Part shown: positions 24,001-27,000 of the stretch, piece by piece
Numbering within the stretch: position 1 is the stretch's first letter
Layout: each line of letters opens with the position of its first letter
From: Escherichia coli O157:H7
GTDB lineage: Bacteria; Pseudomonadota; Gammaproteobacteria; Enterobacterales; Enterobacteriaceae
Strand: one strand, 5' to 3'
Length of the DNA: 64,000 nucleotides
Assembly (NCBI RefSeq): GCF_013167455.1
Contig: NZ_CP038328.1
Position numbers: made by a program

Positions 24001-27000
24001 CTATGTACCTTTATATATTTATCAATCGGATACGAATCTAATAATAACCCTCATCATTAATGCAACTAATCTTATCTATATATCATGTGATATGTTCTGT
24101 AACAAGTAAAATCAACATAAAAAATTCAGCAAAATTTAATATTCGTTCAACTAGCCGTCTCACATATGACATTATTAGTCAACTCCATTTGCCACAAAAT
24201 GGCTATTTCATGGAACACAGTAATTTCTTAGTGGCTATTATCAAGCTAATTCTTAGGTCCCTAGCGATTATTCCTGGCTGATTCGTCAGCTTACGCCATG
24301 AGATTGTTACATTCCTTTTTATCCTGGAGATATGGGGGAACGCAGGAGATGATTTTTTCATCTACATTCGTTGGTAAATATAGCTTTGGTCACTACGACT
24401 TAAACCTTCCTCAATCACAGCCATTCGCCGGGCGATACGGCAAACAAACTAAGTGAAACATCATCCTGAAAACACCAACATCAATAAGCCTCTCCAGATC
24501 GACTTCAGAAGTGACCAGTTACAAGCCACAAACCAGGAAACATATTTCATGATGAGAATTATGCTCAGCCTGATGGCGGGTAAACACTGATTTACACCAA
24601 GCTCACTGAGTTAGCTTGCAAAGCTTCCCTTGTTTAGACTCTAAATAAATTATTTATAAAACAAATAGTTAAACGAAGATCTTTAGTTTTTGAAGACCAC
24701 CGCAAGTGTTCGTCTGGCTTCACATGGCATCTTCTTCTTAGAAAAAGATCGACATATTTTGTGACACGAATTGCAAATCTGGTTTTGTTGTATGGATTGC
24801 GTGATTTTCGATCTGGTATAACAGGTATAAAGGTGCACCACGATAGACAATGAGACAGGGCATCTTGCAATCTATGGCAAACATCACTTCAGTTCTTTCT
24901 CATCGGGTGATGAAAACGCACTTCAGCCTGAAAGGAATATGAAAATGAGATCAACAGACACTCTATTTTATGACTCTGGGTAAAATGAATTGAGTAAGTG
25001 ATATAGCTTACGAACATTCAAATCAATTAAACATCAGAATAGATTTTATACTCAGGTATTTAATCTGGCTCTCTGTTTATTTAAATAATGTGGAAAGAGA
25101 TTTTTCACAGGAGACATTATACAAAAAATATAAAATACAGCTACCGGTTGCCAAAGACACTATAAGCCTGGCAAAAAAATATTACACAACATAAATGCTA
25201 ATTGTTTATGCGGGCTTTGTATTGCTTTCTGTATCCTACAAATGAGTGAAATTTATGAAAAAGGCTAAAATACTTTCTGGCGTATTATTACTGTGCTTTT
25301 CGTCACCATTAATTTCTCAGGCTGCGACACTGGACGTACGTGGTGGATATCGTAGTGGAAGCCACGCCTATGAGACTCGACTCAAAGTCAGTGAGGGATG
25401 GCAAAATGGATGGTGGGCAAGCATGGAAAGTAATACCTGGAATACCATTCATGATAATAAAAAGGAAAATGCCGCACTCAATGATGTTCAGGTTGAAGTT
25501 AATTACGCGATTAAACTTGATGATCAATGGACGGTGCGCCCGGGAATGTTAACGCATTTTAGCAGCAACGGCACACGCTACGGACCCTACGTAAAACTGT
25601 CCTGGGACGCGACAAAAGATCTTAATTTTGGCATTCGCTATCGTTACGACTGGAAAGCTTACCGACAACAAGACTTATCCGGTGATATGTCTCGTGATAA
25701 CGTTCATCGTTGGGATGGATATGTCACTTACCATATTAATAGTGATTTCACCTTCGCATGGCAAACGACGCTATACAGCAAACAGAACGATTATCGCTAT
25801 GCAAACCATAAGAAATGGGCGACGGAAAATGCATTTGTTCTACAATACCATATGACGCCCGATATTACGCCATACATAGAATATGACTACCTGGACCGTC
25901 AGGGTGTTTACAACGGCAGAGATAATTTATCTGAAAACAGTTATCGCATTGGTGTGTCATTTAAACTGTAGTAGACAGGAGACAGTCACAATGAATAAAA
26001 CAATAACGGCGCTTGCTATCCTAATGGCTTCATTTGCCGCAAACGCGTCTGTATTACCGGAAACTCCTGTACCATTTAAAAGTGGTACCGGAGCAATTGA
26101 TAACGACACTGTCTACATTGGTTTAGGTAGCGCAGGTACGGCATGGTACAAGCTGGAGACACAGGCCAAAGATAAAAAATGGACAGCGTTAGCTGCATTC
26201 CCTGGTGGACCAAGAGATCAAGCAACCTCGGCATTTATTGATGGCAATCTGTATGTGTTTGGCGGCATTGGCAAAAACAGCGAGGGCTTGACTCAGGTAT
26301 TTAATGACGTACACAAATACAACCCCAAAACCAATAGCTGGGTTAAATTGATATCGCACGCGCCGATGGGCATGGCGGGCCATGTGACTTTTGTACACAA
26401 CGGCAAGGCTTATGTTACTGGCGGTGTTAACCAGAATATCTTCAATGGCTATTTTGAAGATCTCAACGAAGCTGGAAAAGATTCAACCGCTGTAGATAAA
26501 ATCAATGCACACTATTTTGACAAAAAAGCAGAAGATTATTTCTTTAATAAGTTTCTGTTGTCTTTTGATCCCTCTACACAGCAATGGAGTTACGCTGGCG
26601 AATCTCCCTGGTACGGGACGGCTGGTGCGGCGGTTGTGAATAAAGGTGATAAAACCTGGCTTATTAATGGCGAAGCCAAACCCGGATTGCGAACGGATGC
26701 CGTATTTGAACTTGATTTCACCGGTAATAATTTAAAATGGAATAGGCTTGCTCCCGTCTCATCACCAGATGGCGTCGCTGGCGGTTTTGCGGGGATAAGC
26801 AATGATTCTCTTATATTTGCCGGAGGGGCCGGATTCAAAGGTTCACGAGAAAATTACCAAAACGGTAAGAACTATGCGCATGAAGGCCTGAAAAAATCAT
26901 ATAGCACTGATATTCATCTTTGGCATAACGGGAAATGGGATAAATCGGGTGAATTATCGCAAGGTCGGGCCTACGGAGTATCATTGCCCTGGAATAATAG

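What the first reader, a model, noticed from the sequence alone, without database searches (positions are those of the whole stretch)
24815..24836. NanR-type GGTATA repeats in the fimB-nanC intergenic region
The 1.4-kb region between divergent fimB and nanC contains a near-canonical GGTATA repeat operator, consistent with sialic-acid control of nanC and, at a distance, fimB. A degenerate copy recurs at 59576 in the island.
Basis: established knowledge. Interest (0 to 1): 0.25.

Follow-up and report, generated by a model that had tools for sequence, protein, structure and literature searches.

The report
Known NanR operator between fimB and nanC
The repeats are the well-studied binding site of the sialic-acid repressor NanR between nanC and fimB, here in an E. 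coli O157:H7 genome and base-for-base the same as in K-12, so the finding is correct but ordinary.

Summary
Window 24815-24837 (+) reads GGTATA-ACA-GGTATA-AA-GGTGCA, with a GATC directly upstream. It lies in the 1455-bp gap between fimB (23197-23799, -) and nanC (25255-25971, +).

The window is E. coli O157:H7. The 23-mer is identical to the K-12 nanC-fimB NanR operator. It differs at 2 of 23 positions from the K-12 nanA and nanX operators, and none of 200 random 64-kb sequences came within 3 mismatches.

Both published NagC operators are present exactly, 212 bp apart, with IHF-like matches at their midpoint. The layout fits the published distances from the fimB promoter.

One strain-specific caveat applies. 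This window carries the O157 16-bp deletion in the fim switch, which the literature says locks it OFF. The NanR-to-fimB arm therefore probably has no fimbrial output here, and control of nanCMS is the live function.

The "degenerate copy" at 59576 is real homology (3 of 23 mismatches), not chance. It is a decayed operator in front of a nanM pseudogene, wedged between a Zorya II system and a restriction endonuclease. It has only one intact repeat.

Novelty: none. Interest: low.

The parts
24815..24837 (+). NanR operator (O_NR): GGTATA (24815-24820), ACA, GGTATA (24824-24829), AA, GGTGCA (24832-24837)
   Evidence: Read directly. Identical to the K-12 nanC operator and 2 of 23 mismatches to the K-12 nanA/nanX operators. 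No random 64-kb sequence of 200 came within 3 mismatches.
24810..24813 (.). Dam GATC site abutting the operator
   Evidence: All three K-12 NanR operators have the same GATCT prefix. It is conserved in the 9 E. coli intergenic regions and the partial strain E69 sequence aligned. The literature reports that these GATC sites lie within 5 bp of NanR binding and change methylation state (PMC5155068).
24814..24822 (+). TGGTATAAC: putative extended -10 (TGnTATAAC) of the nanC promoter, embedded in repeat 1. This is an inference.
   Evidence: Read from the sequence. The T before GG was present in every operator found upstream of a nan gene in other genera. The consensus promoter scan did not call it. 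PMC8012715 places the operator within the promoter region.
24753..24775 (-). NagC operator O_NC1 (TGCAATTCGTGTCACAAAATATG). It overlaps a CRP-like TGTGA-N6-TTGCA at 24760-24775.
   Evidence: Exact match to site 'fimB1' of PMC3098098. The matrix score of 10.4 bits is not above background. The CRP-like reading is my inference.
24541..24563 (-). NagC operator O_NC2 (CATAATTCTCATCATGAAATATG)
   Evidence: Exact match to site 'fimB2'. It scored 20.5 bits on a matrix built without the fimB sites. That is the top score in the window and above all 100 random sequences.
24644..24671 (.). Cluster of IHF-like matches (1 mismatch to WATCAANNNNTTR) at the midpoint between the two NagC sites
   Evidence: The midpoint of O_NC1 and O_NC2 is about 24658. 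This is weak as statistics and rests on position only.
25255..28142 (+). nanC (25255-25971), nanM (25991-27097), nanS (27162-28142): the operon the operator controls
   Evidence: RefSeq annotation of a 100%-identical O157:H7 genome.
23197..23799 (-). fimB, the distant target of NanR and NagC activation in K-12
   Evidence: PMC3173223.
21778..22075 (.). fimS invertible element, 298 bp rather than 314 bp, with the O157 16-bp deletion at junction 22010/22011
   Evidence: Alignment with K-12, coordinates, literature.
59576..59598 (+). Relic NanR operator GGTGTA ACA GGTATA AA AGCATA. The GATC is lost.
   Evidence: 3 of 23 mismatches to the consensus, beyond chance. About 72% identity to the nanC promoter region over 74 bp.
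59656..59938 (+). nanM pseudogene remnant: ribosome-binding site plus ATG joined to an internal fragment
   Evidence: 94% identity to the nanC-stop/nanM-start region and 93% to internal nanM. RefSeq marks it as a partial pseudogene.

Best explanation
This is the NanR operator (O_NR) of the nanC-fimB intergenic region, in an E. coli O157:H7 chromosome.

Mechanism, from K-12 work: dimers of the GntR-family repressor NanR bind cooperatively to the direct GGTATA repeats. These repeats sit on the nanC promoter. By my inference, repeat 1 contains an extended -10 (TGGTATAAC), and a CRP-like site lies about 61.5 bp upstream of the likely start. Bound NanR blocks transcription of nanCMS. Neu5Ac binds NanR, weakens its hold on DNA, and derepresses the operon.

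NagC bound at O_NC1 and O_NC2, with IHF between them, adds control by N-acetylglucosamine. In K-12 the same bound NanR and NagC also activate the divergent fimB promoter about 470-760 bp away.

Because the third hexamer is GGTGCA, I expect two dimers to bind tightly and a third weakly or not at all.

In this strain the fimS switch carries the 16-bp deletion that locks it OFF. The live output is therefore nanCMS control, and the fimB arm is probably vestigial for fimbriation.

Shown here: sequence identity, position, orientation and the co-occurring sites. Taken from the literature: NanR and NagC binding, and the effects of Neu5Ac and GlcNAc. Inferred: the -10 and CRP assignments, the two-dimer stoichiometry, and vestigiality in O157.
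For: The operator is identical to the K-12 nanC operator and has the same orientation as all three K-12 operators. It is well beyond chance.

The window is 100% identical to O157:H7 genomes, and the flanking genes are annotated fimB and nanC/nanM/nanS. The intergenic region closely matches K-12 (99% mean column identity).

O_NC1 and O_NC2 are exact copies of the published sites, 212 bp apart. O_NC2 is the top matrix hit in the window.

Distances from the inferred fimB start agree with the published 760-470 bp.

Three NanR dimers bind (GGTATA)3. A two-repeat DNA binds with KD 25 nM but resolves only two complexes, and a single repeat binds poorly. Neu5Ac attenuates binding (PMC8012715).

Genomic SELEX found the nanC/fimB spacer to be the NanR target (PMC5934670).

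The same operator sits 57-62 nt upstream of nanA in about 40 other species-representative genomes, nearly all Enterobacterales, with GGT of repeat 3 always kept and the rest of repeat 3 variable.

The 16-bp fimS deletion is present, and the literature says it prevents type 1 fimbriae in EDL933. A nanR mutant of EDL933 has been constructed, so O157:H7 has the regulator.
Against: No binding or expression data exist for this strain; everything functional is transferred from K-12.

Conservation across 9 E. coli intergenic regions does not by itself single out the operator. There was 1 variable column in 28, against a background of 10%, and 17% of 28-column windows had none. UPEC strain 536 even has a SNP in repeat 2.

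The consensus promoter scan did not call a nanC promoter at the operator. The primary papers that mapped the nanC start site and the footprints were not available.

SELEX reported NanR still bound at this site in the presence of Neu5Ac. That sits awkwardly with simple release by the inducer.
Confidence: 0.93

Rival explanations
1. The hexamers are a chance AT-rich repeat in a long AT-rich intergenic region and have no specific function.
For: GGTATA alone is not enriched in the window: 23 copies against 19 expected. GGTATANNNGGTATA with up to 2 mismatches occurs 4 times against 3 expected.
Against: The full 23-mer has only 2 mismatches to independently defined operators, and 0 of 200 random sequences reached 3 or fewer. 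It is identical to the experimentally studied K-12 site. The motif is conserved upstream of nanA across many genera.
Confidence: 0.01
2. The site acts only as the promoter and operator of nanC. The reported effect on fimB is indirect, for example through divergent nanC transcription or local supercoiling, rather than long-range activation by bound NanR.
For: The operator overlaps a likely -10 of nanC and lies more than 750 bp from the fimB start. No activation mechanism has been established; the authors themselves list several models (discussion of PMC5401889).
Against: K-12 genetics describe NanR as an activator of fimB acting through O_NR, independently of SlyA. I could not read the papers that tested dependence on nanC transcription.
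Confidence: 0.08
3. The repeats lie inside a small protein-coding gene: the 78-codon ORF at 24634-24870 on the minus strand.
For: The mechanical ORF list shows a TTG-start ORF of 78 aa across the site. One genome annotates a 'hypothetical protein' somewhere in the intergenic region (H23).
Against: There is no Pfam match. It is not annotated in the O157:H7 or K-12 RefSeq records. It has a TTG start, and known operators fill the stretch.
Confidence: 0.01

Closest known systems
E. coli K-12 O_NR, the NanR operator in the nanC-fimB intergenic region (Sohanpal et al. 2004/2007; cited through PMC3173223 and PMC5934670)
   Same: Identical 23-mer GGTATAACAGGTATAAAGGTGCA with the same GATC prefix. Same 418-bp distance to the nanC ATG, and the same NagC sites with 212-bp spacing.
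   Different: Three flanking SNPs within 55 bp. The host strain has a locked-OFF fim switch.
K-12 nanA operator (nanATEK-yhcH), the (GGTATA)3 site used for the NanR cryo-EM structures (PMC8012715)
   Same: GATCT-GGTATA-ACA-GGTATA-AA-GGT is identical, with the same orientation toward the regulated gene.
   Different: The third hexamer is GGTATA in nanA and GGTGCA here. The nanA operator is 35 bp from the ATG, against 418 bp here.
K-12 nanX (yjhB) operator of nanXY
   Same: Same operator core, a long leader (411 bp against 418 bp), and 77 bp of promoter region at 83% identity including a TGTGA CRP-like half-site.
   Different: nanXY is absent from this window. Its place near the island end is taken by defence genes and the relic at 59576.
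NagC operators of the nag/chb/glmU/fimB regulon (PMC3098098 Table 1)
   Same: The two 23-mers are exact copies of fimB1 and fimB2.
   Different: None in sequence. O_NC1 is a weak match to a matrix built from the other sites.

Membership tests
NanR operator of the E. coli sialoregulon (site at 24815) | At least two direct GGTATA hexamers with the native 3-nt and 2-nt spacers | tested here: met
   GGTATA-ACA-GGTATA-AA-GGTGCA. PMC8012715 reports that two repeats suffice for KD 25 nM and that one repeat binds poorly.
NanR operator of the E. coli sialoregulon (site at 24815) | Match to independently defined operators (K-12 nanA and nanX) above background | tested here: met
   2 of 23 mismatches. 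The best of 200 random 64-kb sequences had 4 mismatches.
NanR operator of the E. coli sialoregulon (site at 24815) | Lies upstream of, and points toward, a sialic-acid gene cluster | tested here: met
   418 bp upstream of nanC-nanM-nanS on the same strand.
NanR operator of the E. coli sialoregulon (site at 24815) | Adjacent Dam GATC site | tested here: met
   GATC at 24810-24813, as in all three K-12 operators. Across genera it is present in only 25 of 44 operators, so it is not universal.
NanR operator of the E. coli sialoregulon (site at 24815) | NanR protein binds the site, and Neu5Ac relieves repression of nanC in this strain | not testable with these tools
   Shown for K-12 in the literature only. 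EDL933 has a nanR gene.
NagC operator pair controlling fimB and nanC | Sequence identity to the published O_NC1 and O_NC2 23-mers | tested here: met
   Exact matches at 24753-24775 and 24541-24563.
NagC operator pair controlling fimB and nanC | Matrix score above background, using a matrix built without the fimB sites | tested here: inconclusive
   O_NC2 scores 20.5 bits, above all 100 random sequences. O_NC1 scores 10.4 bits, below the random mean maximum of 14.8.
Functional NanR operator (site at 59576) | At least two intact GGTATA hexamers | tested here: not met
   GGTGTA-ACA-GGTATA-AA-AGCATA has only one exact hexamer. The A-to-G change also hits position 2 of the putative -10.
Functional NanR operator (site at 59576) | Upstream of an intact sialic-acid gene | tested here: not met
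   The downstream nanM is a fragment with an internal deletion and a truncation. The genomes inspected at this locus (2 O157:H7 and 2 non-O157) all show a truncated or internally deleted copy.
Functional NanR operator (site at 59576) | Homology to NanR operators beyond chance | tested here: met
   3 of 23 mismatches, with 0 of 200 random sequences reaching that. The flank aligns with the nanC promoter region.

The most novel reading that the evidence does not exclude
The decayed operator at 59576 may still bind one or two NanR dimers. It would then put the adjacent phosphorothioate-DNA-binding restriction endonuclease (60006-60857), or read-through from Zorya II, under sialic-acid control. That would link a gut nutrient signal to phage defence. 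Alternatively, the 2.5-repeat nanC operator may keep NanR bound even with Neu5Ac, as the SELEX data suggest, and so act by a different logic from the nanA operator.
Probability: 0.04. Interest if true: 0.45.

Novelty: already known. Interest (0 to 1): 0.07.

Why it matters
It matters little beyond correct annotation. The site is a textbook-level regulatory element that ties sialic-acid sensing to an outer-membrane channel operon and, in K-12, to type 1 fimbrial phase switching.

The useful points for a reader of this window are three. The full K-12 regulatory layout (NanR, two NagC sites, IHF-like sites) is retained in O157:H7, although the fim switch it ultimately serves is reported to be locked OFF. 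The third hexamer is naturally degenerate, and the cross-genus comparison shows this position is the variable part of NanR operators generally. A second, decayed copy marks where a sialic-acid gene was overwritten by a phage-defence island.

Tried and rejected
- **Hexamer counts alone.** Counting GGTATA, or GGTATANNNGGTATA with 2 mismatches, showed no enrichment. Only the full 23-mer is informative.
- **Promoter scan.** The sigma-70 scan of 23800-25260 found no promoter at the operator. The nanC promoter assignment therefore rests on an extended -10 reading and a CRP-like site, and remains an inference.
- **Rfam.** A scan of 23700-25400 at E <= 1 found nothing, so there is no known RNA element in the long nanC leader.
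- **Primary papers.** Sohanpal 2004, Kalivoda 2003 and 2013, and Condemine 2005 are not held. Footprint limits and the mapped nanC start site could not be quoted.
- **Phylogenetic footprint.** Across 9 E. coli intergenic regions the operator is conserved, but not significantly more than its surroundings.
- **Intact ancestor of the 59576 relic.** I looked among E. coli genomes and species representatives. Every copy inspected is truncated. All GGTGTA-type hits outside E. coli looked like chance matches in unrelated taxa.
- **Small ORFs across the region.** They have no Pfam match.
- **tRNA scan.** No tRNA was found in the window, so the island's attachment tRNA lies outside it.

Full report
**What is in the sequence**

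Window 24815-24837 on the + strand reads GGTATA ACA GGTATA AA GGTGCA. A GATC lies at 24810-24813, directly upstream.

The window is an E. coli O157:H7 chromosome. The 1461-bp stretch around the site is 100% identical to several O157:H7 genomes and is present in 5086 of 5426 complete E. coli genomes.

RefSeq annotation of an identical genome places fimB at window 23197-23799 (-) and nanC at 25255-25971 (+). nanM (25991-27097) and nanS (27162-28142) follow nanC.

**Is it more than chance?**

The hexamer alone is not enriched: 23 copies against 19 +/- 5 expected. A loose two-repeat pattern is not enriched either. The composite site is.

I took the K-12 MG1655 nanA and nanX (yjhB) operators as an independent reference. 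Both read GATCT-GGTATAACAGGTATAAAGGTATA. I then counted mismatches to that 23-mer across both strands of the window. The site at 24815 has 2 mismatches and the site at 59576 has 3. The next best sites have 7. In 200 first-order Markov random sequences of 64 kb, none reached 3 or fewer.

The 24815 site is identical to the K-12 nanC operator. All three K-12 operators, and this one, point toward the gene they precede.

PMC3098098 (FITBAR) Table 1 lists ten NagC sites, including fimB1 (TGCAATTCGTGTCACAAAATATG) and fimB2 (CATAATTCTCATCATGAAATATG). Both occur exactly in the window, at 24753-24775 and 24541-24563 on the minus strand, 212 bp apart.

I built a matrix from the eight non-fimB sites.
- O_NC2 scored 20.5 bits. 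That is the top score in the whole window and above the maximum of all 100 random sequences.
- O_NC1 scored 10.4 bits, which is within background.

So O_NC1 is recognisable only because it copies a published site.

Three one-mismatch matches to the IHF consensus cluster at 24644-24671. This is the midpoint between the two NagC sites.

**Agreement with the published layout**

[quoted passage not shown] It also places the SlyA sites 194-167 bp upstream of the start.

The SlyA O_SA1 sequence is at window 24238-24249. That puts the fimB start near 24060. O_NR then falls about 755-777 bp upstream and O_NC2 about 481-503 bp upstream. Both agree with the paper.

The whole intergenic region closely matches K-12, with 99% mean column identity.

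**Mechanism**

PMC8012715 shows four things.
- Three NanR dimers bind (GGTATA)3 cooperatively through an N-terminal extension.
- A two-repeat DNA binds with similar affinity (KD 25 nM) but forms only two complexes.
- One repeat binds poorly.
- Neu5Ac weakens DNA binding.

Genomic SELEX found the nanC/fimB spacer to be the NanR target. Oddly, NanR stayed bound there with Neu5Ac present (PMC5934670).

PMC5155068 reports that the GATC sites next to the three NanR operators change methylation state, and that nanC expression is lower in a dam mutant.

From the sequence I infer the following. These steps are not shown.
- TGGTATAAC (24814-24822) is an extended -10 element.
- A CRP-like TGTGA-N6-TTGCA (24760-24775) overlaps O_NC1. 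It would be centred about 61.5 bp upstream of a start near 24829.
- The nanC and nanX promoter regions share 77 bp at 83% identity, including this element.

The consensus promoter scan did not call this promoter.

Because the third hexamer is GGTGCA, I predict two tightly bound dimers rather than three.

**Comparative check**

About 40 of these, nearly all Enterobacterales, have NanA encoded 57-62 nt downstream. They include Citrobacter, Enterobacter, Kluyvera, Rahnella, Raoultella, Cedecea, Hafnia and Salmonella arizonae. The remaining loci are mostly scattered chance hits in unrelated taxa; a few are E. coli-type nanC or nanX operators on short contigs.

In every locus with a nan gene downstream, the motif is preceded by TCT and followed by GGT. 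Neither feature was imposed by the search pattern.

The rest of the third hexamer varies: GGTATA 19, GGTATG 10, GGTACA 10, GGTCTA 2, and single cases of others. The GATC is present in 25 of 44. That tabulation selected on TCT and GGT, so only the remaining positions are informative. A degenerate third repeat is therefore normal for this operator family.

Within E. coli I aligned nine diverse intergenic regions.
- 1 of the 28 GATC-plus-operator columns is variable, against a 10% background.
- 17% of 28-column windows have no variable column, so the operator does not stand out.
- UPEC strain 536 carries GGTACA in repeat 2 and a SNP in O_NC1.

**Strain-specific twist**

I aligned the fimE-fimA spacer with K-12. 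It shows the 16-bp deletion characteristic of O157:H7, at junction 22010/22011. The invertible element is 298 bp, between inverted repeats at 21778-21786 and 22067-22075.

PMC8605689 and PMC5401889 state that this deletion prevents the switch from turning ON. PMC5401889 adds that NagC/NanR control of fimB therefore does not lead to type 1 fimbriae in EDL933.

The same paper built an EDL933 nanR deletion, so the regulator exists in this lineage. The live role of the operator here is therefore control of nanCMS.

**The copy at 59576**

GGTGTAACAGGTATAAAAGCATA (59576-59598) is homologous to the operator. Its upstream flank aligns weakly with the nanC promoter region, at 72% over 74 bp.

About 60 bp downstream, at 59656-59691, the sequence matches the nanC-stop/nanM-start junction at 94%. 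It is joined directly to an internal nanM fragment at 93% (59689-59933). RefSeq marks this as a partial pseudogene.

The relic lies between zorE of a type II Zorya system (55992-59465) and a phosphorothioated-DNA-binding restriction endonuclease (60006-60857).

Other E. coli lineages keep a longer but still truncated nanM at the same place. No intact version was found.

With one intact hexamer, a lost GATC and a pseudogene downstream, it fails the tests for a working operator.

**Verdict**

The element is already known in every respect. Interest is low.

Noticed in passing
window 59576-59938: A decayed NanR operator followed by a nanM pseudogene (start codon region fused to an internal fragment). 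It sits between Zorya II zorE and a phosphorothioate-DNA-binding restriction endonuclease. Other E. coli lineages keep a longer truncated nanM here. It looks like the scar of a sialic-acid operon overwritten by defence genes.
   Followed up: yes
window 21778-22075 (junction 22010/22011): The fimS invertible element carries the O157:H7 16-bp deletion relative to K-12, which the literature reports locks type 1 fimbriae OFF. The element is in the same orientation as the MG1655 reference.
   Followed up: yes
window 24238-24249: The SlyA operator O_SA1 upstream of fimB has a SNP. O157 reads TTATCAAGCTAA and K-12 reads TTATCATGCTAA. This brings it one base closer to the SlyA consensus TTAGCAAGCTAA quoted in PMC3173223.
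   Followed up: partly
window 46107-59465: Two defence systems sit back to back. Druantia type III (DruE3 at 46107-52421, DruH3 at 52421-55780, PADLOC E = 0) is followed by type II Zorya (zorA2, zorB2, zorE at 55992-59465).
   Followed up: partly
window 29636-45883 (-): A four-gene module: a UvrD/GajB-like helicase, a 2113-aa DruE-like helicase with a C-terminal HNH-like stretch, a 1644-aa type IIG restriction-methyltransferase/DrmMI-like protein, and a DrmD-like SNF2 helicase. It resembles DISARM or Druantia parts but was not assigned to a named system.
   Followed up: partly
L134 (E. coli 536), aligned to window 24828 and 24773: UPEC strain 536 has GGTACA instead of GGTATA in repeat 2 of the nanC operator, and a G-to-A change in the NagC O_NC1 site. 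This is natural variation that might alter sialic-acid control of fimB and nanC in a uropathogen.
   Followed up: no
L049, L115 (genome contigs): Short contigs filed under an uncultured Bacteroides MAG and under Methylobacterium mesophilicum carry the E. coli nanC-type and nanX-type operator regions. Over the roughly 70-nt stretches shown they are identical to K-12. They are probably E. coli contamination in those assemblies.
   Followed up: no
window 24838-25254 and L003 4648-5058: nanC and K-12 nanX both have leaders of about 410-420 nt between operator and start codon, against 35 nt for nanA. Apart from one further 28-bp match (86%) about 85 nt downstream of the operator, the leaders share little sequence, and no Rfam family matches the nanC leader.
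   Followed up: partly
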